In this document: piece after piece, positions 5,029 through 54,814 of the stretch | How positions within the stretch are numbered: position 1 is the stretch's first letter | Layout: each line of letters opens with the position of its first letter | The notes under the pieces: generated by a model | Seen by the model: the letters and a program-made list of their open reading frames with translations, nothing else | Told to the model about the DNA's origin: nothing | The model's database searches: none | Assembly (NCBI GenBank): GCA_043799385.1 | Contig: JAZDNV010000001.1 | Location: 32,265 to 96,264, forward strand | Source: Candidatus Aenigmatarchaeota archaeon | GTDB taxonomy: Archaea > Aenigmatarchaeota > Aenigmatarchaeia > GW2011-AR5 | Length of the DNA: 64,000 nt | Direction of reading: 5' to 3' | Program-made: the position numbers and the translations under genes

Positions 5029-5238
5029 ATGGAAATGACGTTGCAGTCGATGCGGAGATTGTTCAAAAAAGCTGGCGCAAAGCGTGTTTCTGACAAGGCT
5101 GCCATAGAATTGGGCAAAATAGTTGAAACAAAGGCTAGTTCGATGCTTCTGGAGGCAAAAAAAGTGTCGGAACACAGCGGTCGCAGAACGATATTGAAAA
5201 GGGATGTAAAACTCGCAAAAAAGATTCTGGAAGAGTAA
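5029..5238 (+). CDS. Archaeal histone (HMf-type histone fold)
   Basis: 69 aa; the pattern RLFKKAGAKRVSDKAAIELGKIVE...HSGRRTILKRDVKLAKK aligns with HMfA/B (IGRIIKNAGAERVSDDARIALAKVLEE...HAGRKTIKAEDIELA). Confidence 0.85.
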   Translation: MEMTLQSMRRLFKKAGAKRVSDKAAIELGKIVETKASSMLLEAKKVSEHSGRRTILKRDVKLAKKILEE

Positions 5239-5271: not shown

Positions 5272-6231
5272 ATGCTTGACGAGCTAGTCAAAACGGTTTC
5301 TGCTGCTTCTGGTCTTAACGAAGAAAACATACGGATCAAGATAGCTGAAAAACAGAGGGAACTTTCTGGTCTAGTGTCCGAAGAAGGCGCATGCCATATA
5401 ATTGCTCGAGAGCTTGGCGTAAAGCTGATACGTGAATGCAAGAGACTCAACATAAAGAACGTTATTCCTGGGATGCAGAACGTGGATATAATTGGCAGGA
5501 TAATAAAAATCTTCCCTGCTCGCGAGTTTGGCAATGAAAAGAAGGGCAGAGTAGCCAGCATCTTTGTTGCAGACGAGACCGGACCTATAAGATTATCGCT
5601 ATGGGACAGCGAAACCGACAAAATAAGCGAGTTCAGCGTCGGCGATGTCATCCAGATAAAGGGTTACGTAAAGGATAACCTCGGCGAGCCAGAGATACGT
5701 CTAGGCAGGTACGGCTCAATCGAAAAAATAACACATGAGATGCCTGAGTTAAAAAATCTAGGCGGATTTGAGAGAAGAACAGAGAGAATTGCAATATACG
5801 AGATGAAAGAGAACCAATATTGCGAAATTCGAGCTTGCTTAATAAGCGTATTCGAGTCAAATCCGTTTTACAGCGTCTGCTCAAAGTGCGGTTCGCGGTT
5901 GAAGGATGATAAATGTCCAGAACATGGCGTTGTGGAGCCGGAGTATGAACTGGTCTTGACGGGCATAATAGACGATGGCTCAGACTCGATAAGGGCGGTA
6001 TTTTTCCGCGACAACGCCGAGAAGGTATTGGGCATGGCAAAGAATGACGCGAAGAAGGTCGTTTTCGGCAGAGGCGTTCCTGCATTGATAGATAAAATAG
6101 AATTAGGGGTGGAGTTTATATTTGCTGGCAGGGTCAAGAAAAATATGTTATTCGACAGGCTTGAGTTTATAGTCAATAGCATTAAAAATGTTGATGTTAA
6201 GGATGAGATAGAGATGATGCTGAATGCCTAA
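5272..6231 (+). CDS. Replication protein A-like single-stranded-DNA-binding protein (OB fold plus zinc ribbon)
   Basis: An OB-fold region ([12 protein letters not shown]...[18 protein letters not shown]) and a C4 zinc-ribbon (CSKCGSRL...CPEHG) typical of archaeal RPA. Overlaps radA by 8 nt, so the two are likely an operon. Confidence 0.7.
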
Positions 6232-7222
6232 GGAAGAAGTAAAAGAGAGCACTACTAAGGAAGAATCGATTAAAGCGAGTATGAATGAGGCATTTACACT
6301 TGAGGATTTGCCTGGTGTTGGACCAAAGGGCGCAAAAAAACTGAAAGACGCTGGTTTCGAGGATTTAATGTCAATAGCTGCAGCGTCATCAAAAGAGCTC
6401 GCAAACGTTTGTGAAATAGGCGAGGCAACAGCAGAAAAAATCATAGAAGCGGCGCGCGATAAACTGGATATGGGGTTCAAGACCGCTTCTGACTTTCTTG
6501 AAAAAAGAAAGGAGATAGGAAGAATAACGACAGGCAGCAAGACATTAAATGATTTACTGGGCGGTGGTGTTGAAACGCAGGCGATAACAGAAGCGTACGG
6601 CGCTTTTGGCTCTGGAAAAACGCAACTAGGTTTTCAGCTAGCGATAAGCGTGCAATTACCGAAAGAGAAAGGCGGGTTAAACGGCCGCTGTCTTCTTATA
6701 GACACAGAATCTACCTTCCGTCCTGAGCGAATAGAACAGGTCGCGACTGCGATGGGACTAGACCCGAAAAAGGTTTTGAAAAACATATTTGTTGCGCGCG
6801 CCTACAACTCGGACCATCAAATAGTTTTAGTCGAGAAAGCGAAAGACATGATAAGGGAGAACAACATAAAACTTATAATAATAGATTCCATGATGTCACA
6901 TTTCCGTTCTGATTACACGGGACGAGGGGAATTAGCTCCGCGACAGCAAAAGCTTAATCGCCATCTACATGAATTGCAGAAGATTGCTGATATTTATAAC
7001 ATTGCAATTTACATAACAAACCAGGTAATGGCACGTCCGGATATGCTGTTTGGCGATCCTACGGCTGCAATAGGCGGTCATGTTCTTGGTCATGCATCCA
7101 CTTTCAGATTATATTTCAGGAAGAGCAAACAAACGAAGAGAATAGCAAGATTAATCGATTCGCCATCGCTACCCGAGGGCGAAGCGATTTTTTCAGTCAC
7201 CGAGAAAGGTATTGAAGACTAA
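6224..7222 (+). CDS. radA: DNA repair and recombination protein RadA
   Basis: N-terminal HhH ([20 protein letters not shown]), Walker [10 protein letters not shown], and the conserved RadA/Rad51 core ([14 protein letters not shown]...). Confidence 0.95.
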
Positions 7223-7267: not shown

Positions 7268-7525
7268 TTAAGAAATCTCTTTTTCAGAAACTATCACAAA
7301 GTCTCCAACGGACTTGACGGAAGAGAACGGCACGAGCAGTCTATTGACTTCATCCTTCTCAAGGCTCAAATCACTTGAATATTTTGTAGGTTCCACCAGC
7401 ACGATATTCAATAACTCGCCTGATTCAGAAACAAAGTTTATATCGCCAACGACGCCAAACTTTCTTCCTGTCTCTTCTGAAACAAGTATCTTCCCTATCA
7501 GGTCGCGTCCTCTATTCTTTATCAT
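7268..7525 (-). CDS. PRC-barrel domain protein
   Basis: 85 aa with a PRC-barrel-like pattern (LIGKILVSEETGRKFGVVGDINF...). A paralog lies at 40313..40603. Confidence 0.55.
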   Translation of the reverse strand: MIKNRGRDLIGKILVSEETGRKFGVVGDINFVSESGELLNIVLVEPTKYSSDLSLEKDEVNRLLVPFSSVKSVGDFVIVSEKEIS

Positions 7526-7600: not shown

Positions 7601-8818
7601 TTACGACTTTACAACAAGCGTTTTTATCCGCGGGGAAAGCCTGTAAATGAACGTCTTGTCACGCTTTTCCCTTTCAACGAGATTTTCCTGAAGCAGTATT
7701 TTCAATACGTTGTTTAACGACCGCACAGCATGCTGCCTTGACTTGTATTTTTCCAGATCGAGCATGTCGGCAATGTCGCCTGGCGAAAGCGATTTTTTGC
7801 TCAAGAAATTTATGACCTCTTTCTGCATGTTTGTCAGTCTGTCAAGAATCTTCATCGTCGTTGGCTTCTCTTCTATATCTTCGCGCAAAAGGTCGGGTGT
7901 TATTCTTCTTCTTTCCTCCTTAATTGCTAAATTAACTAGCTCGTTTGATAATCTTAAAACTTCGCGCGGAAAGCCGCCTGTCCTCTCGTATATCATATCT
8001 ATTGTTTCCGGCAGGAACGGCTCTATATCATTGCCGCCAACGCTCGCTATCCTCTTTCTAATCAACTCAAACGTTTCTTCTTTTGTTAGGGATAAAAGCT
8101 CTATTCTGGCCACGATTCTTTTTCTTAACGTTTCGAGTTTGTCTTTTATATGGTCCTCGAATATAGGCAAACCTGATAAAATAATAGACATGTTTTCCAC
8201 CTGGTCGCTCAGAACGCGGAGCCATTCCAGAATATCGATATCCGCTTCATGCGATTCGTCAAACATTATAATCAGGTATTTATTTCTCAATTTTTTGTTC
8301 AGAAAACCGGAAATATCATACGTATTTTTTATGTTAGGGTTAAATGGCCTTAAAAACCATGAAATCCTGAATTTTTCTTTAAATATCCTCACAAATTCAT
8401 CCGGCTTGTAAGGTGGTTTTGCGATGTAAATATGTTCATAACCTAGGGGAAGATTGTTAGAAACCCATTTTAGCAAGGTTGTCTTTCCAGATCCCGTTGG
8501 ACCTGTAACTAGTATTATCTTATGCTTTTCTTCCAGCAATGATAGTATCTCATCCCGTTGCTCACTGTAGCCGACTGATATAGAAGGCGTTATTCTGAAC
8601 GTGAACGGGTTAGCAGACCAACCAACATCGTTGAGCCATTTTTTGACTATTTTAGGTTCTAATCTGGCAGTTTTATGGGTTTTTTCGTATTTTTTCTCTT
8701 CTTTTTCTACTCTAGCTTCTCTCTTCTCTTCTATTGGCTTTTCTATGTTAGGGATAACTGCCACGCTTGGAGCTGTATTTTTGCTGCTCTCGTCGCTAAC
8801 TGTATTCTCATCAACCAT
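7601..8818 (-). CDS. Divergent Orc1/Cdc6-like AAA+ ATPase with C-terminal winged helix and a charged N-terminal extension
   Basis: Walker A GPTGSGKTTLL, Walker B MFDESH, and a C-terminal wH domain (KEVINFLSKKSLSPGDIADMLD...). The AAA+ plus wH architecture is that of Orc1/Cdc6, but the sequence differs from the canonical copy at 25558. It sits next to a dense inverted repeat cluster. Confidence 0.6.
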   Translation of the reverse strand: MVDENTVSDESSKNTAPSVAVIPNIEKPIEEKREARVEKEEKKYEKTHKTARLEPKIVKKWLNDVGWSANPFTFRITPSISVGYSEQRDEILSLLEEKHKIILVTGPTGSGKTTLLKWVSNNLPLGYEHIYIAKPPYKPDEFVRIFKEKFRISWFLRPFNPNIKNTYDISGFLNKKLRNKYLIIMFDESHEADIDILEWLRVLSDQVENMSIILSGLPIFEDHIKDKLETLRKRIVARIELLSLTKEETFELIRKRIASVGGNDIEPFLPETIDMIYERTGGFPREVLRLSNELVNLAIKEERRRITPDLLREDIEEKPTTMKILDRLTNMQKEVINFLSKKSLSPGDIADMLDLEKYKSRQHAVRSLNNVLKILLQENLVEREKRDKTFIYRLSPRIKTLVVKS

Positions 8819-8849
8819 ATGCCTATTATGTACAGCTGTTTTATTAAAA

Positions 8850-9260
8850 GATTTTCGTGTTCAACTTCATATTTTTCTTCGTGAAGTTCATCAAATTTTA
8901 AACAAGTTCACTAAAGTTTTATAGACTTTAATGAACTTCATCAAATTTCACAATGAATTCACGTGAAGTTCATGAAGATCTTTTTTAATTTCGTGAAGTA
9001 AGATGAAGGTTTTGTGAAGGGTTTTGTGAATATTTATTACGTATTTTAGTTGTAATAAATGCATAAATGTGAGTTTTTCATATAATTTCTCCAAGGTTTG
9101 GTAAGAGTATTCATATTATGTTCATTTAGCTTCATGGAATATTCATAGATGTTCATTTTAACTTCATATAACTTCACGCAACTTCACGTAATCTTCACGA
9201 AATGTTCACGAAGCCTGTTATGAATGTGGGTAAAATTGTGAGAAATAAAGCCATTTTCGT
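8850..9260. repeat. Dense cluster of short direct and inverted repeats (core AACTTCACG / CGTGAAGTT, plus GTTCATCAAATTT) flanking an AT-rich centre; candidate replication origin or initiator-binding array
   Basis: The left half carries CGTGAAGTTCATCAAATTT, GAACTTCATCAAATTTCAC, TTCACGTGAAGTTCATGAAG, TTCGTGAAGTAAG and TTTGTGAAGGGTTTTGTGAAT. The right half carries four tandem copies AACTTCACGC / AACTTCACGT / AATCTTCACGA / AATGTTCACGA at 9168..9215, which are the reverse complement of the left-half unit. The centre 9030..9160 is AT-rich. Confidence 0.6.
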
Positions 9261-9375
9261 GAGATTGAAATAATAAAATTTTAAAATTTAAATTCAAAAT
9301 ATTGACAATAAAAGCTGAAAACCTAAAATATTTCCTTTTTAGACTGAAAATAACACAATATTAGTGTAATTATTG

Positions 9376-9690
9376 CTAAATTTTGTTCAAAACACGAAGG
9401 AGTTTCATGATCTCGGTTATGTCCTTACCTTCCTGAAGTCTCTCGAGGACGAACGGCTTTAATTTTATGACACGGATTATCGGTTTGCCGTTGCCCAAAC
9501 TGGAATCATCGACAAGCGGCTTAAGAATCCCTTCTACGTATTTAGCCACAGTAGCCGGAGCCATTCCTAGCTCTTCGGATAACCGTCTCAACCAGATGCC
9601 GTCTGGATTAGCCCGCAAAGCCCTTACAATAGATGAAATCTTCCTATCATCAAAGCCCTTTTTCCTTCCCACGCCTAATAAAATGAACAC
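9376..9690 (-). CDS. Small winged-helix DNA-binding protein embedded in the repeat region
   Basis: 104 aa with an HTH core (LSEELGMAPATVAKYVEGIL). Flanked on both sides by TTCAC/TTCAT repeat units. Confidence 0.45.
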   Translation of the reverse strand: MFILLGVGRKKGFDDRKISSIVRALRANPDGIWLRRLSEELGMAPATVAKYVEGILKPLVDDSSLGNGKPIIRVIKLKPFVLERLQEGKDITEIMKLLRVLNKI

Positions 9691-9804
9691 GTGTAAATAT
9701 AAAGCTTTATTGAACCTGCATAACGAAAAAAACCGTACTTTCTATTAAAACCAGCTAAAAACTCACATAAATTGCATAATTACTGGTTTTATACGTAGCG
9801 ATTT

Positions 9805-9870
9805 ATACATTCCAACTTCATCCTTACTTCATATTGTATTCACACATTTTCACGTAAAAATCTATATAAA
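9805..9870. repeat. Additional copies of the AACTTCAT / TTCACG repeat unit on the other side of the wHTH gene
   Basis: ccaacttcatccttacttcatattgtattcacacattttcacgtaaaaatc. Confidence 0.45.
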
Positions 9871-9900
9871 TTTTAAATTTTTTACAATGCAAGTAATGCC

Positions 9901-10401
9901 ATGCGCTGCTTTGTTTCAATCGACGTTGATAGTAGGTTAAAAGAAGCAGCAATCAACCTGCAAAATCAGATACCGGGCGATGTCAAGCTCGTGGAGCCAG
10001 AAAACCTGCATTTCACGCTTGAGTTCCTAGGTGAAATAAGCAATGCATCAGTGATAGAAGAACGTCTGGCTAAAATAGCAGGTGAATTTGAGCCATTTAT
10101 AATTAACATAAGAGGGATCGGCGTATTTCCTGATATGAATTATATCCGTGTCGTCTGGCTGGGTGCAGAAGAGCTTTCTAACCTACAAAGCGCTGTTAAT
10201 CCAAAAGAAGCGACGCCTCATCTAACGATAGCTCGTGTACGCTCAGTGAAGGACAAGGAAGCACTTAAGGCTTTCATAGAAAAGCATAAAGACATAGATA
10301 TTGGCCAGATGCTCGTTGACAAAATCAAACTAAAGAAGTCAACGCTAACGCCAAGCGGGCCTATATACGAGGATATAAGGGTTTTTGAGTTGAGGGTATG
10401 A
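9901..10401 (+). CDS. thpR: RNA 2',3'-cyclic phosphodiesterase (2H phosphoesterase, ThpR/LigT family)
   Basis: Two H-x-T-x motifs (HFTLEFLG and HLTIARV) in the expected spacing for the 2H superfamily. Confidence 0.75.
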   Translation: MRCFVSIDVDSRLKEAAINLQNQIPGDVKLVEPENLHFTLEFLGEISNASVIEERLAKIAGEFEPFIINIRGIGVFPDMNYIRVVWLGAEELSNLQSAVNPKEATPHLTIARVRSVKDKEALKAFIEKHKDIDIGQMLVDKIKLKKSTLTPSGPIYEDIRVFELRV

Positions 10402-13189: not shown

Positions 13190-14362
13190 TTACTTGAAAT
13201 CTTCGATTGTCAGAATCTTAAGCGATCCTGGATTGACACGTTCTTTGTAGTCCATCCCAACCAGATATGAAACTTTTTTCTTCAAAGCTAGGTCGACGAT
13301 TGCCTGGTTTATCTTTCCGTCAAAAACAATCGCATGAACGTCGAAATCATCTATGACGCTGCTCAGTTCGTTTAGAGGCACTTTCGTCAGGACTTCACGA
13401 TTCCTGTCTATCAGATACGCTGCTCTTGTTCCGATTAGCTCTTCAAGTGTCGAAGAAAGGAAATTCATCGTCTCTACATCAATCTTTTCTTCCTCGTATT
13501 CTTCCTTGACAGCTTCTTCTACAGGAATGTCATTCAATTTATCGCGCTGGTCGACTGGCACGCGGTCGCGAAGAGCTTTGAATATCTGCTTTTTTGTCAA
13601 TTCCTCAACTTCCTTTCCTTTCTCGCTTCTTGCAACGAACTCTATATCCGCTACTGAAAGCAGTTTTTTCAGTATCAAATCGCCTCCGCGGTCATTATCC
13701 AGAAACGCGGTCGTTATTTTTTCTTTTGTAAGTGCCGCTATTGCTTCCGGGACTTTCGAGCCTTCAACTGCTATTGCGTTTCGTATGCCGTTCTTTAGCA
13801 GGTTTATCACGTCTGCACGACCTTCAACAACGACTATCTCATCCGAATCGCGTATTCCTGGGCCACAACTCAGACCATTGTAGTTCATGACCTCGTAGCT
13901 TCTAACTGCTTCCTTAATAATTTCGGAAAGCTTTTGCGAATCCGGTATTCCCTCGTCTATCGTTGCCCTCAATATTTCTTTGGCGCGGTCGACAACGTAT
14001 TTTCTTTTCTGACTGCGAACATCTTCTACTTTAACCGTCTCTATAGTCGCTTCGCAAGGACCCACTTTGTCTATTGTTTCCAGAGAAGCGGCAATCAATG
14101 CCGTTTCGCTTGCGTCTAAACTGGACGGAATCAATATCTCTGCGTAGGCCTTTCCCTTTGATGTCTTTATTTCTACATCTATTCTTCCTATGCGGCCTGT
14201 TCGCTGCAGCTCGCGCAAATCTAAATCCTGGCCTAAAAGGCCTTCGGTCTGACCGAATATCGCTCCTATCACATCAGGCCTCTCAACGACGCCGCTGGCG
14301 TCAAGCCTTGCATGTATAAGATACTTAGCAAAATCCTGTGCTAATTTAGCCATATGATTCAC
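13190..14362 (-). CDS. dnaG: Archaeal DnaG-like primase (TOPRIM domain; exosome-associated DnaG)
   Basis: The N-terminal region conserved in archaeal DnaG (LIHARLDASGVVERPDVIGAIFGQTEGLLG) and a TOPRIM core (EIVVVEGRADVINL...FLDNDRGGDLI). Confidence 0.85.
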   Translation of the reverse strand: MNHMAKLAQDFAKYLIHARLDASGVVERPDVIGAIFGQTEGLLGQDLDLRELQRTGRIGRIDVEIKTSKGKAYAEILIPSSLDASETALIAASLETIDKVGPCEATIETVKVEDVRSQKRKYVVDRAKEILRATIDEGIPDSQKLSEIIKEAVRSYEVMNYNGLSCGPGIRDSDEIVVVEGRADVINLLKNGIRNAIAVEGSKVPEAIAALTKEKITTAFLDNDRGGDLILKKLLSVADIEFVARSEKGKEVEELTKKQIFKALRDRVPVDQRDKLNDIPVEEAVKEEYEEEKIDVETMNFLSSTLEELIGTRAAYLIDRNREVLTKVPLNELSSVIDDFDVHAIVFDGKINQAIVDLALKKKVSYLVGMDYKERVNPGSLKILTIEDFK

Positions 14363-25304: not shown

Positions 25305-25420
25305 AAGGTACCCGGTGTTTTCGTTTGGAGTTTTGTTTTTATTGAAAATTTGAGAATTTTATGAAAAAAACACTACCTTACTTTCCTATAACATTGTTAT
25401 TTTAATTGTTTTTTATAATA

Positions 25421-25509
25421 TCTCCATTTGAAACGAGGGGGTGTGTTGTGGTGGTGTTAATTCAAAACAAAAAAAGATATACCACCAACCCTATTTTCCA
25501 GTAGAGATA
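25421..25509. promoter_or_regulatory. Predicted oriC core: two inverted ORB-like elements flanking an AT-rich spacer
   Basis: Plus-strand TCTCCATTTGAAACGAGGGGGTGTGTTGTGGTGG at 25421..25456 closely matches the archaeal ORB consensus (CTCCAnnnGAAACGnAGGGGT). An inverted copy at 25482..25507 reads CTCTACTGGAAAATAGGGTTGGTGG on the other strand. The spacer is ttaattcaaaacaaaaaaagatata. A further AT-rich stretch lies at 25328..25375. Immediately upstream of orc1/cdc6. Confidence 0.6.
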
Positions 25510-25557
25510 TGTTTATATATACTCCAAGAGAAAAGTAGGTATATTCTTGGTGGTGTG

Positions 25558-26766
25558 ATGGAAGCAATAGCCAGTAATATTTTTTCCCAACATATAAACA
25601 AACCCTCGTTGTTTAAGAATAAAAATATATTGAACTCTACGTTCATACCGCCAAAAATATCATTCAGAGACGTTGAGATTGAACAGGCGGTTTCGGTACT
25701 TTCTCCGGCCCTGAGGAACTATAAGCCAAACAACATATTCATCTATGGCACGTGCGGAACTGGCAAGACCGTGGTTGTCAAATACGTCCTTAACCAACTC
25801 GAGGCTTTAGGCAAGAATAACATCAAAACAGTTTACGTCAACTGCAAAATGAAGCGCGTTGCAGATACAGAATACCGCTTGCTGGCGTGTCTGCTGCGCG
25901 AACTCGGTGTTACAGTGCCGGATACAGGCCTGCCTACAGACGTTCTTTACAGAAGATTTTTTGAGAAGGTTGACTCAAAACAGCATATAGTCCTAATCGT
26001 GCTTGATGAAATTGATACGCTATTCAACAAAGTAGGCGACGAATTCCTTTACAACCTGATAAGGATAAACAACGAGCTGAAAAACGCGCACATAAGCATA
26101 GTTGGGATAACCAACAACCTTTCTTTCCGGGAGGGCCTGGATGTAAGGATACGCTCTTCTTTGGGCGAAGAGGAAATTTTATTCAAGCCCTACAACGCCA
26201 TACAACTGAAAAACATACTTTCAGAAAGAATAGCTGAAGGGTTTTGCGAGAACGTCGTTTCCGAGGATGTCTTGGGCAGATGTGCCGCATTGGCTGCGCA
26301 GGAGCATGGCGATGCAAGGCGTGCACTTGATATGTTAAGAACAGCAGGCGAGCTTGCAGAGCGCATGGGCGATACAGAAATAACTGATACGCATGTTGAT
26401 TTGGCGGAGAAGAAGATTGACCTTGACCGTGTCGTCGAGACGATAAAGGCCCAGCCGAAACAGTCACAGGCGGTTCTGTGCGCGATAATGGCGTTGGAAA
26501 AACAAAGCAATGGCAAATGGAGCGATTCGCGGTTGCTCACAGGCAATGTTTTCTTGAAATATAAGGAGATAGTCAAGAACAACGGTTTGCGCGCCTTGAC
26601 ACAAAGAAGGATAAGCGACCTGATAGGTGAATTAGATATGCTCGGCGTAATCACTGCGAAGGTTATTTCCAAGGGAAGATACGGCAGAACGAGGGAGATA
26701 TCGTTGGCAATGGCGGATGAATTAAAGGACAAGGTAAAGGCGACCCTCTGGGAAAGATTTTTATGA
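25558..26766 (+). CDS. cdc6: Orc1/Cdc6 replication initiator
   Basis: Walker A GTCGTGKT, VLDEID Walker B, and a C-terminal winged helix. Start set at Met40 (MEAIASNIF...) because the upstream part of the ORF-track ORF overlaps the ORB elements. Confidence 0.85.
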   Translation: MEAIASNIFSQHINKPSLFKNKNILNSTFIPPKISFRDVEIEQAVSVLSPALRNYKPNNIFIYGTCGTGKTVVVKYVLNQLEALGKNNIKTVYVNCKMKRVADTEYRLLACLLRELGVTVPDTGLPTDVLYRRFFEKVDSKQHIVLIVLDEIDTLFNKVGDEFLYNLIRINNELKNAHISIVGITNNLSFREGLDVRIRSSLGEEEILFKPYNAIQLKNILSERIAEGFCENVVSEDVLGRCAALAAQEHGDARRALDMLRTAGELAERMGDTEITDTHVDLAEKKIDLDRVVETIKAQPKQSQAVLCAIMALEKQSNGKWSDSRLLTGNVFLKYKEIVKNNGLRALTQRRISDLIGELDMLGVITAKVISKGRYGRTREISLAMADELKDKVKATLWERFL

Positions 26767-27845
26767 ACAGGGACGAGATAGTTAAAAAATTTCTGGATAA
26801 AAAAAAGCTTCTGACACAGGCTGCGCTGGAAGCAATCCACGGCAAAAACCTAGACGATTTCTTGGGGAAGGAGTACGTATCACTTGTTCTGGAGGAACGG
26901 GATTTTTTTGTTCACGATGTCAAGATACTAAAAAATTTGACGGAAAAGCTCAATGAGATAACAACAGACGATTTTGTAAAATTCTACAAATCGAAATACG
27001 AGCGAATGCGTGAGATAATACTGAGCAGGATGAAGAAGGATTTCGTATCATTAAATAAATTGGATAATTTCAGGAACGAGGTCTTCGTTCTCGGTATCGC
27101 CAGAGAGATAAAAGAGAATGGCGACAAGAAAATCGTCGAATTTGAGGACCTAACGGCAACGAAACCTATAATATTCGACGATATATCAGATCTGGAACTG
27201 GACGATGTTGTTGCAATAAAGGCAATAAGCGCCGGTAATGTTTTATACGGCAAGGGTATTTTTTATCCTGACATACCGCTTCGCGAACCGGTTAAAGGGA
27301 TGGACAAGGCGTGCTTTATCTCTGACATGCATCTGGAAGAAGCGCCATTGAGCGGTGCCGAAGACTTTTTCAAATGGTTTTCAAACCAGGCGATAAAATA
27401 CCTTTTTGTCGCCGGTGACGTTGGTGACAGGGAAAAATTTGAAAAACTCGTCAACGAATACTGTATAGGCAAATCGGTTTTCTCGACACCAGGTTGCGGT
27501 GCCGAATACCCAGGCTTGCCGGAAAAATTTGAAAGCAAGCATATAACATCATTATCCAATCCTGCAATGGTCGAGATAAACGGCATAAAGATACTGCTTG
27601 TGCACAGCCTTAACTTGAATATGCTCAAGAAAAGATACCTAGGTAAATCGAAGATAATACTGCCTGAAGATTATCTGGTCCTCGATTACGTTCCGGACAT
27701 CGTGCATTACGGCCACAATCACGAGGCGCAAGTCACGAATTATAAATCAGTCACACTGGTCAATTCAGGTTCATTGCTCACGGATTTCAAGCCAGTAGTG
27801 ATCGATTTCGCAACGCGCGAAGTTGAGCAGATAAAGATAGCTTAA
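26763..27845 (+). CDS. DNA polymerase II (PolD) small subunit DP1-like protein: short N-terminal helical domain plus calcineurin-like phosphoesterase
   Basis: Phosphoesterase motifs DMH, GDVGDRE and HYGHNHE. A DP1-like N-terminal helical region (IVKKFLDKKKLLTQAALEAI). Its position immediately after cdc6 is typical for DP1 near euryarchaeal origins. 360 aa is short for DP1, so an alternative metallophosphoesterase remains possible. Confidence 0.55.
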   Translation: MNRDEIVKKFLDKKKLLTQAALEAIHGKNLDDFLGKEYVSLVLEERDFFVHDVKILKNLTEKLNEITTDDFVKFYKSKYERMREIILSRMKKDFVSLNKLDNFRNEVFVLGIAREIKENGDKKIVEFEDLTATKPIIFDDISDLELDDVVAIKAISAGNVLYGKGIFYPDIPLREPVKGMDKACFISDMHLEEAPLSGAEDFFKWFSNQAIKYLFVAGDVGDREKFEKLVNEYCIGKSVFSTPGCGAEYPGLPEKFESKHITSLSNPAMVEINGIKILLVHSLNLNMLKKRYLGKSKIILPEDYLVLDYVPDIVHYGHNHEAQVTNYKSVTLVNSGSLLTDFKPVVIDFATREVEQIKIA

Positions 27846-27979
27846 AGGCGTGTTTATTGGTCACGATTTATGATATTATACAATTAGGGTAAGCGAAAAT
27901 CTGCTGACGTATTTGCTACTCATAAGATATATTTAATGATGGCGGAAAGAATTAAATAATTTAATCAATCAATGGGGTT

Positions 27980-30589
27980 ATGTTATTTCAATTATTGGAT
28001 GTTGACTATTTTTTGAACGGAAACAAACCGGTCGTAAGATTATACGGCAAGACAGAAAACGACAACTCAATATGCGTATTCTGCGAGAATTTCCAGCCTT
28101 ATTTCTACATAAAAGAAAAAACCGACGTGCCCGGTGCGATAAAGATAGAAGAGGTCGAGAAATTCCTGCCTCTAGGTTATCATGAAAAACCAATAAAGCT
28201 ACAGAAAGTAACTCTGACCAATCCGCAGGACGTCGGTGTAGTGAGAGAGCAGCTGGCCGCAGACGGCGTAGAGAGCTATGAAGCAGATATATTGTTCAAA
28301 TACAGGTTCATGATCGACCATGGTCTGCACGGCATGGACTGGATTGAATTCGAAGGAAGAAAAACGCACACGAATCTGGTTAACATACCTGCATACGTTG
28401 CAAGCAGCATAAAGAGAGTCGAGAGCTATTCGAACGCGCCGCTGAAATACATGTCGTTTGATATTGAATGCCTGCCGAGTGACGTTAAGCGGTCAATAGA
28501 CGCAAAGATGGACCCTATAATAATGATAGCGCTGACTTTCTACCCGGATTACAGGAACAAAAAAAACCTCGTTCTTGTCGCAAAGCCGGTGAATGAAAAC
28601 GATGCTAAAGGATTCAGAAGCGAGAAAGAGATGCTTGAGGAATTCCTGAACATAATAAGGGTGTACGACCCGGACATAATCACGGGTTATAACATAAATT
28701 CTTTTGATCTGCCGTACCTGCTTGAGAGGTTAAAACAAAACCATCTGCCAGCGAATTTCGGCCGCTGCAACGACAAGTACGTCTACTCAAAAAAATTCGG
28801 CATGACAGAAGAATGCACAATCAACGGAAGAATAGTAGTTGACCCATACCAACTGTTGAAAAGAGACCCGTGGCTCAAATTCGTACGTTACGACCTTAAT
28901 ACGATTGCAAAGGAGTTGCTGGGCGAAGCGAAATTGGACGTTGAGTACAGCGAAATGCCAGAGCTTTGGAACGGCACACGGGACGAACTAAGCAGGTTCA
29001 TCGAATATGCGAGAAAAGATGCAGATCTATCAATACGCTTAGTTCTTGAGAGAAGGATGCTTGACAAATTCATAGAGCTTGCGAAGGTATCCGGATTGCT
29101 TTTACAGGATACGTTCGGCGGCCAATCCACGAGGGTAGAAACGATGATTCTGCACGAATTCAAGAAAAGGAATTTCGTGATGCCGTCTAAGCCAACTTCT
29201 TCTGAACTTACAAAACGATTGAAAGAACGGGAGAAGAAAGGATTGAAGGGCGCGACAGTTTTAGAACCTAATAAAGGATTTTATTCTGACTATGTGCTCG
29301 TACTGGATTTCAAAAGCCTGTACCCGAACATAATCAGGACGTATTGCATTTCGCCTGACTGCCTACTGCTTGATGGCAGCGATGGTATTAAATCACCGTC
29401 AGGCGCGGTTTTTGCGAAACGTGAAGTTCGCGAGGGCGTTTTCCCGTTTCTTCTAACAAAGCTGCTTGAAGCAAGGGGAATTGCAAAGAAGGCGATGAAA
29501 ACCGTAGGCAAAGAAGAGAAAAAGATACTCAATGCAAAACAATTGGCGTTAAAGGACATGGCCAACTCGTTCTACGGCTATACAGGCTACATACGTGCAA
29601 GGCTGTATATGATAGACGTGGCTAATGCAGTGACGAGTTATGGCCGTGAAAATATCGAAAGGACGAAAAAACTGATAGAGGATACCTTTAAAGTGAATGT
29701 CATCTACGGCGACACTGATTCCATATTCCTGAAGGTGAGTGTAAAGAGCATAGACGAGGCGAATGAGCTAGGCAGTAAAATATCAAAATTCGTGACCGAC
29801 AACCTTCCAGGCTACCTTGAGTTGGAATTCGATAAGATATACCGCTCGTTCCTCATACTGACAAAGAAGAGATATGCCGGTTGGAAGTTTGACTATTCAG
29901 ATGGAAAATGGGTTGACAGCATAGACATGCGCGGCATCGAGACAGTCAGACGCGATTGGTGCTCGCTGGTTACAGAAACAATGAACGAGATACTCAACAT
30001 AATCCTGAAAGAGGGCGATGTACAGAAGGCGCTTAATCGCATGCGCGATGTCGTAGAAAAGATAAAGAGAAATGAAATACCAATGGAAAAACTTACTGTT
30101 GTGAAGGAAATAACGAAACATGTGGATTCATATGAAGGGATACTGCCGCACATCGAGCTGGCAAAAAAGCTCACTAACAGGAACCCGCACGACGTACCAA
30201 AAGTTGGCGACAGGATTGGTTATATTATAATAAAAGGCAATCAGCTGCTGTCCAAGAGGGCAGAAGACCCGAAATATGCGGAAAAAAACAGATTACAGAT
30301 AGATTCTGATTACTATCTGTCGTCGCAGCTATTTCCGCCGATCGAAAGAATATTGAACGCCGTCGGGATAACGAGGAGCGAGATGCTTGGCAACGGAAAA
30401 CAGATGAACATATTCGACATGGTCAACGGGAAAAAAAGCTCAAGCAATGAGTTAGCAGGTTGGGAAGGATTTGTCTGCAAAAAATGCAACAAATCCTACA
30501 GAAGGATGCCGCTGCAAGGTCTTTGCGAGTGCGGCGGCGAACTTTTGCTCAGCTACCACGGCTCTGTTGGCAACAAGATAAAGATTTAG
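27980..30589 (+). CDS. polB: Family B DNA polymerase, complete, with exonuclease and polymerase motifs and a C-terminal zinc finger
   Basis: Exo I FDIE, polymerase motifs DFKSLYPNII and YGDTDS, and C-terminal CKKCN...CECGG. Confidence 0.9.
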   Translation: MLFQLLDVDYFLNGNKPVVRLYGKTENDNSICVFCENFQPYFYIKEKTDVPGAIKIEEVEKFLPLGYHEKPIKLQKVTLTNPQDVGVVREQLAADGVESYEADILFKYRFMIDHGLHGMDWIEFEGRKTHTNLVNIPAYVASSIKRVESYSNAPLKYMSFDIECLPSDVKRSIDAKMDPIIMIALTFYPDYRNKKNLVLVAKPVNENDAKGFRSEKEMLEEFLNIIRVYDPDIITGYNINSFDLPYLLERLKQNHLPANFGRCNDKYVYSKKFGMTEECTINGRIVVDPYQLLKRDPWLKFVRYDLNTIAKELLGEAKLDVEYSEMPELWNGTRDELSRFIEYARKDADLSIRLVLERRMLDKFIELAKVSGLLLQDTFGGQSTRVETMILHEFKKRNFVMPSKPTSSELTKRLKEREKKGLKGATVLEPNKGFYSDYVLVLDFKSLYPNIIRTYCISPDCLLLDGSDGIKSPSGAVFAKREVREGVFPFLLTKLLEARGIAKKAMKTVGKEEKKILNAKQLALKDMANSFYGYTGYIRARLYMIDVANAVTSYGRENIERTKKLIEDTFKVNVIYGDTDSIFLKVSVKSIDEANELGSKISKFVTDNLPGYLELEFDKIYRSFLILTKKRYAGWKFDYSDGKWVDSIDMRGIETVRRDWCSLVTETMNEILNIILKEGDVQKALNRMRDVVEKIKRNEIPMEKLTVVKEITKHVDSYEGILPHIELAKKLTNRNPHDVPKVGDRIGYIIIKGNQLLSKRAEDPKYAEKNRLQIDSDYYLSSQLFPPIERILNAVGITRSEMLGNGKQMNIFDMVNGKKSSSNELAGWEGFVCKKCNKSYRRMPLQGLCECGGELLLSYHGSVGNKIKI

Positions 30590-52514: not shown

Positions 52515-52534
52515 TTTAATAGTCTTCCGATGAA

Positions 52535-54814
52535 ATGTTTATTATGTTCTGCCTGCTGGACGCTGACTACATTATAGAAGGAGAGAAACCGGTAATACGC
52601 TTATTTGGAGTTGATGAGAGCGGAAAAGCGGTTATAGTCAAGGACGAGTTCAGGCCCTATTTCTACGCCCTGCCTAAAAACAAGGCGCTGTTGGAAAAAA
52701 AGCTGAAAGCAATGGATAATGTCACAGAGATAAAATACATTAAAAGAAAGATAGGCGGCGATGAAAAAAGCGTTATGCAAGTGTTCGTTGATTTACCGCA
52801 AAATCTGCAGGGGGTTCGCGACGAGATAAAGCGTATTGCGGATTGCTACGAATACTCGATAAATTTCTACAAGCGCTACCTGATAGACAAAAATTTCTAT
52901 CCACTAGACTGGATAACGGATAAGACGGAGAAAATAGAGAAGGATGATAATCCAAAGATGAAGATACTTGCATTTGACATAGAAACGGTAGATGACAGAA
53001 TCGTGATGATAAGCATCGCCGATAACACCGGATTTGAAAAAGTAATAACATCAAAGGATGAGAAAAGTATCCTTGAAGAATTTGAAGAAACGATACTGAA
53101 AACAGACCCACATATTATTGTTACGTACAACGGCGACAAATTCGATTTCGAAGTTCTTCGCGAGCGGGCAGATTATAACAAGATAGAATTAAAGCTTGGT
53201 GATGAAGCTTTCAAGTTCGCCCGCCGTGCGCACGCGAACTCTGCACGGATTTTTGGCCGCGTTCATATCGACTTGTTCAACTTCGTCTACAATATCTTAT
53301 CACCGCAACTGCAATCGGAGATACTGACGCTGAACGAAGTCTCAAGAGAGCTCGTAGGCGAAGGCAAAGAAGAGCTGTCGCTGGAAGAGATAATAAATCT
53401 ATGGAAGAATAATAGCAAAAAACTGGCAGAGTATTGCCAGAACGATTCAAGGCTGACATTAAAACTCGCGAACATGCTCCTGCCGCAAATCTTCGAGTTG
53501 GCAAAACTAAGTGGTCAACTACCTTTTGATTGCTCACGGTTGACTTATGGTCTTCTCGTCGAATGGTATCTGATAAGGAAAGCAAATGAGATGAACATTA
53601 TTGCTCCTAATCAACCGCACTGGAACGAGATACAGAAAAGGCGAGAACTAAAACCGTACAAAGGCGGCTATGTTATAGAACCGAAGCAGGGCCTGCACGA
53701 CAACATTGCTATATTTGACTTCCGCTCACTTTATCCGAGCATAATCGTTTCATTCAACATATCGCCAGAGACATTAAACTGTTCTTGTTGTAAAAGCAAT
53801 AGATACAAAGTTCCAGGAATGGATTATTATTTCTGCAAGAGGAACGAGGGTTTCATACCAAAACAAGTAAAGAAATTGATAGAGAAACGCCAGGAGATAA
53901 AAGAAAGAATGAAAAAAGCGGGTAAAGAAGAAATAAAATCTCTGGACGAGCAGCAGCGTGCAGTGAAAATAATCGCTAATGCGACTTACGGCTATCTCGC
54001 TTACCCAGGCTCAAGATGGTATTCTCGCGAGTGCAGTGAAAGCGCTGCGGCTTTTGGTCGCGACAGCATCAAGAGAACGATAAGCGAGGCGGAGAAATTT
54101 GGCTTTGACGTTCTCTACGGCGATACTGATTCGCTCTTTGTAAAGATGAAAGGAAAAGACGTAGGAAGAGAATCTGAAAAATTCCTTGAGAAGATAAACA
54201 AGTCATTGCCAGGTATGATCGAACTTGAGATGCAAGGCATTTATGAGAAAGGTTTGTTCGTTCCGCAGCGGCTAGGCAATTACGTTGCAAAGAAGAGATA
54301 CGCCTTAATCGACAAGAAAGGAACGCTAACAATACGCGGTCTCGAGACCGTGCGGCGTGACTGGTGCAAGATTGCAAGAAGTTTGCAGCGTGATGTGATA
54401 AGGCTGGTTCTTACCGGCAAAGAGAAAAAAGCGATAAAGGAAGTAAGAGAAGCGGTAAAGAGAGTCAAGGCAAGGAAAGTCTCGTTGAGCGAGCTGATGG
54501 TCACAACGCAACTAGGAAAGGCGTTGAGCGATTACAAGGCGATAGGACCGCACGTCGCAGTCGCAAAGAAACTGGAAAAGGAAGGCCATGAAATTCGTGA
54601 AGGCATGCTAATCAGTTTCATCATCACAAAAGGCCATGGTTCAATATCCGAGCGAGCCGAGCCAATAGATAAAGTCACGATAAATGATTATGACATCGAC
54701 TACTACCTGAATAACCAGATAATATCGGTCGCATTGCGGGTACTGCAGGTCTTCGGTTATAAGGAAGAAGACTTTTTGGAAGCCGGTATGAAGAAATTTT
54801 ATAAAACTAAATGA
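52535..54814 (+). CDS. Second family B DNA polymerase, complete, with intact exonuclease and polymerase motifs
   Basis: Exo I FDIETV, FDFRSLYPSII and YGDTDS are present; 759 aa. Confidence 0.85.
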   Translation: MFIMFCLLDADYIIEGEKPVIRLFGVDESGKAVIVKDEFRPYFYALPKNKALLEKKLKAMDNVTEIKYIKRKIGGDEKSVMQVFVDLPQNLQGVRDEIKRIADCYEYSINFYKRYLIDKNFYPLDWITDKTEKIEKDDNPKMKILAFDIETVDDRIVMISIADNTGFEKVITSKDEKSILEEFEETILKTDPHIIVTYNGDKFDFEVLRERADYNKIELKLGDEAFKFARRAHANSARIFGRVHIDLFNFVYNILSPQLQSEILTLNEVSRELVGEGKEELSLEEIINLWKNNSKKLAEYCQNDSRLTLKLANMLLPQIFELAKLSGQLPFDCSRLTYGLLVEWYLIRKANEMNIIAPNQPHWNEIQKRRELKPYKGGYVIEPKQGLHDNIAIFDFRSLYPSIIVSFNISPETLNCSCCKSNRYKVPGMDYYFCKRNEGFIPKQVKKLIEKRQEIKERMKKAGKEEIKSLDEQQRAVKIIANATYGYLAYPGSRWYSRECSESAAAFGRDSIKRTISEAEKFGFDVLYGDTDSLFVKMKGKDVGRESEKFLEKINKSLPGMIELEMQGIYEKGLFVPQRLGNYVAKKRYALIDKKGTLTIRGLETVRRDWCKIARSLQRDVIRLVLTGKEKKAIKEVREAVKRVKARKVSLSELMVTTQLGKALSDYKAIGPHVAVAKKLEKEGHEIREGMLISFIITKGHGSISERAEPIDKVTINDYDIDYYLNNQIISVALRVLQVFGYKEEDFLEAGMKKFYKTK

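What the first reader, a model, noticed from the sequence alone, without database searches (positions are those of the whole stretch)
7601..9900. Second origin-like locus: divergent Orc1/Cdc6-like AAA+ gene next to a dense inverted array of AACTTCACG repeats and an embedded wHTH gene
Immediately upstream of the divergent Orc1-like gene is a roughly 400-bp non-coding stretch packed with a 9-bp unit (AACTTCACG). At least four copies run tandemly on one side. The reverse-complement form (CGTGAAGTT, often extended to GTTCATCAAATTT) lies on the other side, and the centre is AT-rich. That is the architecture of initiator-binding sites flanking a DNA unwinding element. The unit is unrelated to the ORB at the canonical origin, so this may be a second origin with a dedicated initiator paralog. 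It could also be the replicon of an integrated plasmid-like element, or a regulatory array for the small wHTH protein whose gene is flanked by more copies at 9812..9862.
Basis: partly seen in the sequence, partly recalled or inferred. Interest (0 to 1): 0.65.

Follow-up and report, generated by a model that had tools for sequence, protein, structure and literature searches.

The report
Phased binding-site array beside Orc1-like ATPase
Next to a gene for an Orc1/Cdc6-shaped DNA-binding ATPase, this DPANN archaeon carries about 26 copies of a short TTCAC-type site, roughly one per turn of the DNA helix; locus and array recur in all 11 loci examined from one Aenigmarchaeota clade, and the gene pair recurs in a second clade, which marks an undescribed protein-DNA assembly site whose role (extra replication origin, segregation site or regulator) is still open.

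Summary
The 557-bp spacer 8819..9375 holds 26 TTCAY sites per 400 bp, against a window mean of 2.7. Same-strand spacing across eight related loci averages 10.65 bp. The sites form two outward-facing arrays (4 and 10 copies) around an AT-rich centre, plus palindromes near the promoter of gene 7601..8818.

A canonical orc1 gene with an inverted ORB-like pair lies 16.5 kb away, at 25.3 kb.

Gene order (LigT, small wHTH, array, AAA+, PRC-barrel, RadA, RPA, histone) and the array recur in seven other Aenigmarchaeota loci and three metagenomic fragments. No relative beyond P-loop or ExeA-level similarity turned up in the plasmid and viral collections, so an integrated plasmid replicon is rejected.

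Most likely the ATPase's winged helix reads TTCAC and the protein oligomerises along the arrays, repressing its own promoter. Whether the complex fires replication, marks the chromosome for segregation or division, or only regulates is unresolved. It is a new variant of a known kind.

The parts
7601..8818 (-). Gene for a 405-aa AAA+ plus C-terminal winged-helix protein. Walker A is GPTGSGKT, Walker B is D187-E188, sensor-2 is GGFPRE, and the recognition helix YKSRQHAVRSVNN is invariant. Residues 1-50 are disordered.
7268..7525 (-). 85-aa PRC-barrel protein gene. It follows the ATPase gene within a few hundred bp in 11 of 12 loci from both clades; it lies on the opposite strand in L086 and behind an intervening ORF in L081, L085 and L087. 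Identity between clades is 69%. An SD-like GGTGA precedes its ATG.
   Evidence: sequence read.
8839..8849 (-). Putative TATA-like box (TTTTAATAAAA) 21-31 nt upstream of the ATPase ATG. It aligns with TTTAAGCC-type boxes in related loci. This is an inference.
   Evidence: Sequence; alignment A2; L148 and L186 promoters flanked by TTCACGTGAA.
8866..8976 (.). Promoter-proximal block of mixed-orientation TTCAY sites. It includes the perfect palindrome TTCACGTGAA at 8958-8967 and two 17-nt copies of TGAAsTTCATCAAATTT.
8993..9030 (-). Proximal phased array: 4 TTCAY sites spaced 10-12 bp. In relatives it is 6-7 copies of CCTTCACAAAA.
9031..9109 (.). AT-rich centre between the two outward-facing arrays (24% GC). 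It carries the conserved element AAAAACTCACAT..ATTAC..ATACGTA, with CTCACA at 9068-9073 on the - strand.
   Evidence: alignment A2.
9110..9209 (+). Distal phased array: 10 TTCAY sites spaced 10-11 bp. The last five are AACTTCAT, AACTTCACG, AACTTCACG, ATCTTCACG and ATGTTCACG.
9220..9375 (.). Distal flank. It holds CTCACA/CTCACG elements at 9237-9242 and 9258-9263 (- strand). A 22%-GC stretch follows, containing the third least stable 50-mer of the window. A hairpin plus T-run lies downstream of the wHTH stop.
9376..9672 (-). Gene for a 98-aa winged-helix protein with a MarR/ArsR/IclR-like fold. The family is found only in Aenigmarchaeota, always upstream of the array in clade 1. The ORF extends to 9690, but the conserved start is MGRKKGFD.
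9753..9797 (+). Inverted second copy of the central CTCACA element (AAAAACTCACAT..ATTAC..ATACGTA).
9817..9853 (+). Secondary phased array of 4 TTCAY sites, between the divergent wHTH and LigT promoters. Its position is not conserved in other loci.

Best explanation
The spacer 8866..9209, with outliers to 9853, is the dedicated DNA assembly site of the ATPase encoded next to it. The protein is an AAA+ module, a lid and a C-terminal winged helix, the same three-domain build as Orc1/Cdc6.

Proposed mechanism:
- The winged helix reads one TTCAC-type site.
- Sites recur about every 10.65 bp, so all lie on one face of the helix.
- ATP-bound protomers can therefore contact each other head to tail along an array. 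I recall this as the arrangement of DnaA on the two opposed low-affinity arrays of E. coli oriC.
- Two such oligomers point away from an AT-rich centre of about 80 bp.
- Palindromic TTCACGTGAA sites and sites beside the TATA box let the same protein repress its own promoter.

Like its fold relatives (Orc1/Cdc6, MuB, TnsC), the DNA-bound oligomer then probably recruits a partner to this single chromosomal locus.

Shown here: the sites, their phasing, their symmetry and their conservation; the fold; the synteny.

Inferred: which protein reads the sites, the oligomerisation, the autorepression, and what is recruited.

My split for the downstream role is about 25% auxiliary or alternative replication origin, 15-20% segregation or division-coupling site, and the rest regulation only or something else.
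For: Site density and phasing:
- 26 sites per 400 bp against 2.7.
- Phased chains occur only at this locus; shuffles give 0.06 per window.
- Across 8 loci there are 247 sites. Same-strand spacing peaks at 11 bp (78 cases) and 10 bp (34), with harmonics at 20-22 and 30-31 bp; the mean period is 10.65 bp.

Layout:
- Distal '<' array, centre with CTCACA elements, proximal '>' array, palindromes, TATA, ATG. This holds in 7 of 8 full loci and in the fragments L148, L186 and L183.

Reader identity:
- The recognition helix YKSRQHAVRSVNN is invariant in 24 proteins that are only about 50% identical overall.
- In the second clade (39% identity, no small wHTH upstream), TTCAC/GTGAA sites still sit beside the TATA box. 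The upstream coding gene also carries more sites than synonymous-codon shuffles allow: 14 against 7.1 (P<0.0005), 12 against 6.6 (P=0.001), 7 against 3.2 (P=0.0065).

Fold and ATPase motifs:
- Walker A, Walker B, sensor-2 and a candidate arginine finger (R234) are invariant.

Single locus:
- Paired sites and the palindrome occur nowhere else in the 64 kb.
Against: - No binding data exist.
- Direct repeats one turn apart are also used by wHTH proteins that have no ATPase domain, such as PhoB/OmpR-type regulators (from my own knowledge).
- L083 has a different layout: 16 copies in one orientation.
- The AF2 model has inter-domain uncertainty (pTM 0.61), and TM-scores to Orc1 are only 0.45-0.54.
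- Enrichment inside clade-2 coding genes could partly reflect V-K and V-N dipeptide content; even the shuffle mean is high.
Confidence: 0.6

Rival explanations
1. A true second replication origin. The Orc1-fold ATPase is a dedicated initiator that assembles on the arrays, melts the AT-rich centre or distal flank, and loads MCM.
For: - Orc1/Cdc6 are the closest solved folds.
- The array lies next to its own initiator-like gene, as at archaeal origins and iteron replicons.
- Opposed arrays flank a 24%-GC centre whose least stable 50-mer (-52.8 kcal/mol) equals that of the canonical unwinding region (-52.9). The distal flank is the third least stable spot in the window.
- The locus sits among RPA, RadA, histone and DnaG-type primase genes.
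Against: - A canonical orc1 gene with an inverted ORB-like pair and the DP1 and PolB genes lies only 16.5 kb away.
- Sequence families are ExeA, TniB and MuB-like, none known as initiators.
- In relatives the spacer is not the least stable DNA of the locus; in L086, 1147 windows elsewhere are less stable.
- In clade 2 there is no free spacer at all and the sites lie in coding DNA.
- GC skew in the window follows gene strand and gives no signal.
Confidence: 0.25
2. A centromere-like or division-coupling site. The array-bound ATPase recruits the always-adjacent PRC-barrel protein, a relative of the CdpB division-ring proteins. This would tie an origin-proximal chromosome locus to segregation or to the FtsZ ring.
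For: - The ATPase to PRC-barrel gene pair is the most conserved feature of the module. It is present in 11 of 12 loci across both clades, and the PRC-barrel protein is 69% identical between clades against 39% for the ATPase.
- PRC-barrel proteins CdpB1-3 act in haloarchaeal division (bioRxiv 10.1101/2023.03.28.534520).
- Two sets of iterons about 11 bp long around a promoter recall the R1 parC centromere (from my own knowledge).
- The locus is near the canonical origin, as bacterial parS sites are (also from my own knowledge).
Against: - No ParA, ParM or SegA-type motor is present in the locus.
- That paper reports many PRC-barrel genes whose neighbourhoods are unrelated to division.
- No interaction evidence exists.
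- In L086 the PRC-barrel gene is on the opposite strand.
Confidence: 0.17
3. An operator array for the small MarR-like wHTH, possibly together with the ATPase. It would serve only transcriptional control of the two genes and LigT.
For: - The wHTH gene always borders the array in clade 1.
- Four phased sites lie between the wHTH and LigT promoters.
- Sites overlap or flank the ATPase TATA box.
- Orc1-2 of Saccharolobus is a precedent for an Orc1-fold protein acting as a transcription regulator (PMC9738581, title and abstract listed).
Against: - About 30 sites per locus is far more than an operator needs.
- MarR-type dimers normally use palindromes rather than long direct-repeat arrays (from my own knowledge).
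- The site cluster persists upstream of the ATPase gene where the wHTH gene is elsewhere or not nearby.
- The secondary array near the wHTH promoter is not conserved.
Confidence: 0.15
4. The replicon of an integrated plasmid or virus.
For: The module of iteron-like repeats plus an adjacent initiator-like gene looks like a plasmid replicon. The region has low GC (27% against 41%).
Against: - The same core-gene synteny (LigT, RadA, RPA, histone, DnaG) holds in all loci examined.
- No integrase, transposase or tRNA border is present.
- Viral contigs yield only short partial matches, and PLSDB gives only 24-29% ExeA-like matches.
Confidence: 0.02

Closest known systems
Archaeal Orc1/Cdc6 initiators with ORB-flanked origins (for example Aeropyrum ORC2 1w5s, Saccharolobus Orc1-1 2qby)
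   Same: - Three-domain build: AAA+ base, lid and C-terminal winged helix.
- The gene lies next to a symmetric array of its presumed binding sites around AT-rich DNA.
   Different: - No Cdc6_C or Cdc6_lid profile match, and only 9.7% hhalign probability against the genome's own Orc1.
- The N-terminal NPFTF..VGY motif and the GGFPRE sensor-2 resemble ExeA (ExeA side from my own knowledge).
- Sites are 5-9 bp, about 30 in number and one per helical turn, not a few ORBs of roughly 20-35 bp (ORB size from my own knowledge).
- A canonical Orc1 origin coexists 16.5 kb away.
DnaA on the two opposed arrays of low-affinity sites in E. coli oriC (recalled from my own knowledge: Rozgaja et al. 2011)
   Same: AAA+ protein with a C-terminal DNA-reading domain. 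Two oppositely oriented arrays with about 11-bp register would guide head-to-tail oligomers.
   Different: Unrelated DNA-binding domain and motif. This is an archaeon with a Cdc6-type replication system, and unwinding is unproven. The comparison is an analogy of mechanism, not a membership claim.
Iteron-type replicons (recalled from my own knowledge: RepA/pPS10, P1 and F plasmids, Vibrio chromosome 2 RctB with phased 11/12-mers)
   Same: Direct repeats in helical phase, and inverted repeats at the promoter of the adjacent initiator-like gene. This gives the same logic of autorepression plus an array.
   Different: The protein is an AAA+ ATPase, not a WH-WH Rep protein. The locus is chromosomal and syntenic across a phylum, and there is no plasmid context.
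ExeA/GspA-like AAA_22 ATPases and MuB, TnsC and TniB target-DNA ATPases
   Same: - Best sequence profiles: PF13401 (3e-12), TIGR03015 (5e-22), phrog_296 'DNA transposition protein' (6e-15).
   Different: - It has a sequence-specific winged helix and a dedicated site array.
- No transposase, T2SS or PEP-CTERM genes are nearby.
- The TIGR03015 score (78 bits) is far below the family cut-off (324 bits).
Orc1-2 of Saccharolobus islandicus, a non-initiator Orc1 paralogue acting as a DNA-damage regulator (PMC9738581, PMC12490963)
   Same: An Orc1-fold protein that works as a sequence-specific DNA binder rather than an initiator. Here too the neighbours are repair genes (RadA, RPA).
   Different: Orc1-2 is a true Orc1/Cdc6 family member. 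It is described as a global regulator, so presumably acts at many promoters, whereas here the sites form one dense phased array at a single locus within the 64 kb examined.
R1 plasmid parC/ParR centromere (recalled from my own knowledge)
   Same: Two sets of iterons about 11 bp long in helical phase flank a promoter. Cooperative binding builds a large complex that also autoregulates.
   Different: The binder there is a small RHH protein working with the actin-like ParM. No such motor is present here.

Membership tests
Orc1/Cdc6 (archaeal initiator family) | AAA+ base, lid and C-terminal winged-helix architecture | tested here: met
Orc1/Cdc6 (archaeal initiator family) | Significant match to the family profiles (Cdc6_C PF09079, Cdc6_lid PF22703, orc1/cdc6 NCBIfam) | tested here: not met
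   None were found at E<=0.1 in Pfam or E<=0.01 in NCBIfam. The genome's real Orc1 (25441..26766) hits Cdc6_C at 5e-24 and Cdc6_lid at 1e-23. hhalign of A1 against that Orc1 gives 9.7% probability, limited to the P-loop region.
Orc1/Cdc6 (archaeal initiator family) | Initiator-specific helical insertion (ISM) after strand beta-2 | tested here: inconclusive
   The model has three helices (141-149, 154-159, 166-177) between strands 127-132 and 181-186. That is compatible with an ISM, but no residue-level superposition was made.
Orc1/Cdc6 (archaeal initiator family) | Gene adjacent to an origin made of ORB elements flanking an unwinding element | tested here: not met
   There is no ORB-like element here. 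CTCCA-N3-GAAA-N5-GGG occurs only at 25311-25441. A different array of short sites is present instead.
Orc1/Cdc6 (archaeal initiator family) | Origin firing and MCM loading | not testable with these tools
   This needs marker-frequency analysis, ChIP or biochemistry.
ExeA/GspA-like AAA_22 ATPases (COG3267, TIGR03015) | Profile match above the curated cut-off | tested here: inconclusive
   PF13401 AAA_22 scores 47.4 bits against a cut-off of 27, so it is met. TIGR03015 scores 78.5 bits against a cut-off of 324.5, so it is not met. JGI names many homologues 'ExeA'.
ExeA/GspA-like AAA_22 ATPases (COG3267, TIGR03015) | Association with type II secretion or PEP-CTERM/exosortase genes | tested here: not met
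   No such genes occur within +-6 kb in 12 loci.
MuB/TnsC/TniB transposition ATPases | AAA+ fold and profile similarity | tested here: met
MuB/TnsC/TniB transposition ATPases | Encoded next to a transposase within a mobile element | tested here: not met
   No transposase is present, and core-gene synteny is conserved in all loci.
Iteron-type replicon | Multiple direct repeats in helical phase next to the initiator gene, with inverted repeats at its promoter | tested here: met
Iteron-type replicon | Adjacent AT-rich unwinding element | tested here: inconclusive
   In the window the centre is 24% GC and the flank 22% GC, and their stability is comparable to the canonical unwinding region. This is not conserved as the least stable DNA in relatives, and it is absent as free spacer in clade 2.
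Iteron-type replicon | Extrachromosomal or mobile context | tested here: not met
   and the synteny.
Type II (ParMRC-like) or other partition centromere | Phased iteron arrays flanking a promoter | tested here: met
   Whether a promoter sits in the centre is inferred only.
Type II (ParMRC-like) or other partition centromere | Adjacent partition NTPase (ParA, ParM, TubZ or SegA) and adaptor | tested here: not met
   Pfam annotations of the neighbours show none.

The most novel reading that the evidence does not exclude
Aenigmarchaeota carry a second, non-Orc1-family initiator-clade machine: an ExeA-derived AAA+ plus winged-helix protein that polymerises on helically phased TTCAC arrays at one origin-proximal locus. 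It would recruit either MCM, giving a new class of archaeal origin and initiator, or the co-conserved PRC-barrel protein. The latter would make it the first archaeal link between a specific chromosome site and the FtsZ-type division or segregation apparatus.
Probability: 0.3. Interest if true: 0.85.

Novelty: new variant of a known kind. Interest (0 to 1): 0.62.

Why it matters
All characterised archaeal origins that I know of use Orc1/Cdc6-family proteins or the Cdt1-like WhiP, together with ORB-type elements. FtsZ-type archaea have no known centromere or nucleoid-to-divisome link.

This finding is an essential-looking module, conserved across a phylum and found at one locus in the 64 kb examined, beside the canonical origin. 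It combines an Orc1-shaped but ExeA-family ATPase, about 30 phased sites, a PRC-barrel partner and a small wHTH.

It gives a concrete and cheap experimental target: purified protein plus a 400-bp DNA fragment. That would test whether AAA+ oligomers guided by phased sites, the DnaA principle, also operate in archaea, and what they recruit.

It also shows that automated labels for this protein ('T2SS/T4P ATPase', 'TadA', 'ExeA') are misleading.

Tried and rejected
- **GC and AT skew** over the window follows gene strand only, so it says nothing about origins.
- **Rfam** on 8700-10000 gave no RNA family.
- **The sigma-70 promoter and terminator scan** gave nothing above chance and is not appropriate for archaea.
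- **The genome-contig scan** with the protein alignment was swamped by the Walker-A pattern. Only one true relative (L001) was recovered.
Only 3 of 120 contigs carried the module, so it could not test uniqueness genome-wide.
- **Viral contigs and PLSDB** gave no relatives beyond P-loop or ExeA level.
- **PDB sequence searches** gave only P-loop-level hits. The relation to Orc1 is visible by fold only.
- **Literature searches** found no description of this locus. The supplement of PMC12680538 with per-genome Cdc6 counts is not held.
- **Walking along relatives' contigs** to measure the distance to their orc1 was not possible with the look-up rules.
- **Chance or low complexity** as an explanation of the repeats is rejected by the shuffles and by conservation across loci.
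Full report
**Source and setting**

The window comes from a Candidatus Aenigmatarchaeota (DPANN) metagenome-assembled genome. The protein of gene 7601..8818 is 100% identical to an NCBI entry on a 166-kb contig. The finding lies in a stretch of replication and repair genes:
- histone, 5029-5238
- RPA, 5272-6231
- RadA, 6224-7222
- PRC-barrel protein, 7268-7525(-)
- the AAA+ gene, 7601-8818(-)
- a 557-bp spacer
- a small wHTH gene, 9376-9672(-)
- LigT, 9901-10401
- an OB-fold protein
- DnaG-type primase, 13190-14362(-)

**Observation**

The real unit is shorter and far more numerous. TTCAY occurs 26 times in 8801-9200, against 2.7 +- 2.5 per 400 bp in the window, and the next-best bin has 8. 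The 7-mer AACTTCA occurs 7 times where 0.05 is expected.

The sites are helically phased. Ten copies on the + strand lie at 9110-9209, spaced 10-11 bp. Four copies on the - strand lie at 8993-9030. A mixed block at 8866-8976 includes the perfect palindrome TTCACGTGAA. Four further phased copies lie at 9817-9853.

Chains of at least 3 phased sites occur nowhere else in the 64 kb. Block shuffles give 0.06 chains per window and never more than 3 members. Paired sites and the palindrome are likewise confined to this locus. The two main arrays point away from a 79-bp, 24%-GC centre (9031-9109).

**The ATPase**

Sequence profiles place the protein with AAA_22 and ExeA-like P-loop ATPases: PF13401 at 3e-12, TIGR03015 at 5e-22 but far below its cut-off, and a MuB-like phage 'DNA transposition protein' family at 6e-15. 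An ArsR/SdpR-like winged helix covers residues 331-395. It does not match Cdc6_C, Cdc6_lid or any orc1/cdc6 model. hhalign against the genome's own Orc1 finds only the P-loop region, at 9.7% probability.

So 'Orc1/Cdc6-like' holds for fold and architecture but fails as family membership.

Walker A, Walker B, a sensor-2 arginine (GGFPRE) and a candidate arginine finger (R234) are invariant. So is the winged-helix recognition helix YKSRQHAVRSVNN, in proteins that share only about 50% identity overall. An invariant reading head predicts an invariant DNA target.

**A canonical origin is also present**

Gene 25441..26766 is a standard Orc1/Cdc6 (Cdc6_C 5e-24, Cdc6_lid 1e-23). It is followed by a DP1-like gene and a PolB gene. 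This fits the report that Aenigmatarchaeota keep DP1 but lack DP2 (PMC12680538).

Upstream of it, CTCCA-N3-GAAA-N5-GGG occurs exactly twice in the window, in inverted orientation, at 25311-25330 and 25422-25441 (expected 0.01). The pair flanks a 17%-GC stretch. The TTCAY locus is therefore not this organism's only initiator-and-origin candidate, and it lies only 16.5 kb from the conventional one.

**Conservation**

Seven homologues (49-56% identity) from long contigs of other Aenigmarchaeota were fetched with their flanks. All keep the main gene order: small wHTH (about 100 aa), a spacer of roughly 420-725 bp, the AAA+ plus winged-helix gene, a PRC-barrel gene, then RadA, RPA and histone. LigT lies just upstream of the wHTH gene in most of them.

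Every spacer is packed with the same motif. The bins upstream of the gene hold 11-17 TTCAY sites per 200 bp, against locus means of 1.3-2.1. In total there are 247 sites, with logo A-n-(C/G)-TTCA-(C/T)-(G/A).

Same-strand spacings peak at 11 bp (78 cases) and 10 bp (34 cases), with harmonics at 20-22 and 30-31 bp. The mean period is 10.65 bp.

The layout is shared by seven of the eight spacers. Read in the direction of the gene, it runs:
1. two CTCACAAA elements 21 bp apart
2. a distal array of 5-10 sites
3. a centre with two CTCACA elements 31 or 42 bp apart
4. a proximal array of 6-7 CCTTCACAAAA units
5. TTCACGTGAA palindromes
6. a TTTAAGCC-type TATA box
7. the start codon

L083 departs from this, with 16 copies in one orientation followed by 4 in the other.

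Three metagenomic fragments with roughly 41-42%-identical relatives of the ATPase or the wHTH show the same features (L148, L186, L183). In L148 and L186, palindromes sit on both sides of the TATA box.

No relatives exist in IMG/VR or PLSDB beyond P-loop or ExeA-level similarity. The locus is therefore an old chromosomal feature of the phylum and not an integrated replicon.

**A second clade**

L001, L208, L209 and L210 carry a 350-365-aa version of the ATPase. It is 39% identical to the window protein, lacks the disordered N-terminus, and its recognition helix varies in the SRQH positions but keeps A-x-RS-x-NN.

These loci keep the ATPase to PRC-barrel pairing. The PRC-barrel protein is 69% identical between clades. 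They have only 55-115 bp upstream of the ATPase gene and no wHTH gene there. L001 and L208 have a distantly related 100-aa wHTH further downstream.

One to three TTCAC/GTGAA sites still sit beside the TATA box. The upstream coding gene also contains more sites than shuffles of synonymous codons allow:
- L001: 14 against 7.1 +- 1.6 (P<0.0005)
- L208: 12 against 6.6 (P=0.001)
- L210: 7 against 3.2 (P=0.0065)
- L209: 5 against 2.4 (P=0.03)

Clade-1 LigT genes show no clear enrichment: L082 has 0 sites, L086 has 1, and the window's LigT is borderline (4 against 1.6, P=0.04).

A site cluster upstream of the ATPase gene is thus maintained even at the cost of overlapping a coding sequence, and independently of where the small wHTH gene lies. 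This is the best available argument that the ATPase's own winged helix is the TTCAC reader. It also argues that the cluster does more than tune one promoter. It is not proof, because amino-acid content contributes to the counts.

**The small wHTH**

It may read the second motif, CTCACA. The whole central element (AAAAACTCACAT..ATTAC..ATACGTA) is repeated in inverted orientation upstream of the wHTH gene at 9753-9797. This assignment is a guess.

**Mechanism**

The following is inference. Direct repeats at one site per helical turn suit head-to-tail protomers rather than symmetric dimers. An AAA+ module with an intact arginine finger provides exactly such contacts.

From my own knowledge, the closest working analogy is DnaA filling two oppositely oriented arrays of low-affinity boxes in 11-bp register in E. 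coli oriC. The promoter-proximal palindromes resemble the operator logic of iteron plasmids.

From their solved filament structures, MuB and TnsC bind DNA as ATP-dependent oligomers. From my own knowledge, they and Orc1/Cdc6 then recruit a partner. I therefore propose an ATP-dependent double oligomer on the arrays that represses its own gene and serves as a platform (confidence about 0.6).

What it recruits is open:
- **Origin reading, about 0.25.** For: the fold, the gene-adjacent symmetric array, AT-rich DNA as unstable as the canonical unwinding region in this window, and the replication-gene neighbourhood. Against: the canonical origin 16.5 kb away, the lack of a conserved exceptionally unstable segment in relatives, and the absence of free spacer in clade 2.
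[quoted passage not shown] There is no motor gene in the locus and no interaction evidence.
- **Purely regulatory reading, about 0.15.** It has the Orc1-2 precedent (PMC9738581). It does not explain 30 phased sites at one locus.

**Novelty**

Literature searches found no description of this family, array or gene pairing. Public annotations call the protein 'ATPase, T2SS/T4P/T4SS family', 'TadA' or 'ExeA'. The missing secretion-gene context and the winged-helix and array evidence make these labels misleading.

I rate it a new variant of a known kind: an initiator-clade AAA+ plus winged-helix protein with an iteron-like phased array. It would become more than that if the recruited partner proves to be MCM or the division machinery.

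Noticed in passing
window 25305-30589: Canonical origin and replication operon. CTCCA-N3-GAAA-N5-GGG occurs only twice in the window, inverted, at 25311-25330(-) and 25422-25441(+). The pair flanks a 17%-GC stretch directly upstream of a true orc1/cdc6 (25441-26766). A DP1-like gene (26763-27845) and a PolB gene (27980-30589) follow. This fits the published note that Aenigmatarchaeota keep DP1 but lack DP2 (PMC12680538).
   Followed up: partly
window 7268-7525 (-); L001 7159-7419; all fetched loci: An 85-aa PRC-barrel gene follows the ATPase gene in 11 of 12 loci from both clades (opposite strand in L086). It is more conserved than the ATPase: 69% against 39% identity between clades. PRC-barrel proteins (CdpB1-3) act in haloarchaeal cell division. 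No interaction test was possible.
   Followed up: partly
L001 5388-5945, L208 5345-5887, L209 5583-5945, L210 5526-5912: In the second clade, the coding gene upstream of the ATPase gene (LigT or an OB-fold gene) carries about twice as many TTCAC/GTGAA sites as synonymous-codon shuffles give (P from <0.0005 to 0.03). The binding-site cluster seems to be embedded in coding sequence.
   Followed up: yes
window 9068-9073(-), 9237-9242(-), 9753-9797(+); L081-L087 spacers: A second conserved motif, CTCACA(A/T), always in one orientation and itself phased (21 bp, and 31 or 42 bp). The whole central element AAAAACTCACAT..ATTAC..ATACGTA is duplicated in inverted orientation upstream of the wHTH gene. 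Its reader is unknown; it may be the small wHTH.
   Followed up: partly
window 9670-9690: The wHTH ORF as listed starts at GTG 9690 (MFILLGVGRKK...). All homologues start at MGRKKGFD, so the real start is probably the GTG at 9672. A TTTATATT box lies about 25-30 nt upstream of that codon.
   Followed up: partly
L083 5694-5921: One relative has a different array layout: 16 phased sites in one orientation, then 4 in the other next to the gene, with no distal opposite-facing array.
   Followed up: no
L084 4001-4046; window 9817-9853: Secondary phased arrays of 4-5 sites occur at non-homologous places on either side of LigT in two genomes, so small satellite arrays come and go.
   Followed up: no
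window 9330-9375; L082 5395-5440: Just after the wHTH stop there is a conserved hairpin-like element (CTAAAA-AGGAAATA-TTTTAG) within T-rich DNA. It is probably the wHTH terminator.
   Followed up: no
window 49740-54814 and 61735-63945: Further DNA-metabolism genes lie in the same window: an Lhr-type helicase (49740-52514), a second family-B polymerase (52535-54814) and a Cdc48-type double AAA ATPase (61735-63945).
   Followed up: no
window 7601-8818 product; public annotation: Public records name this family 'ATPase, T2SS/T4P/T4SS family', 'Flp pilus assembly complex ATPase component TadA' or 'ExeA'. The profile matches underlying these names (T2SSE, GspE, PilB) cover only about 30-40 residues around the P-loop, so the names are probably misannotations.
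   Followed up: yes
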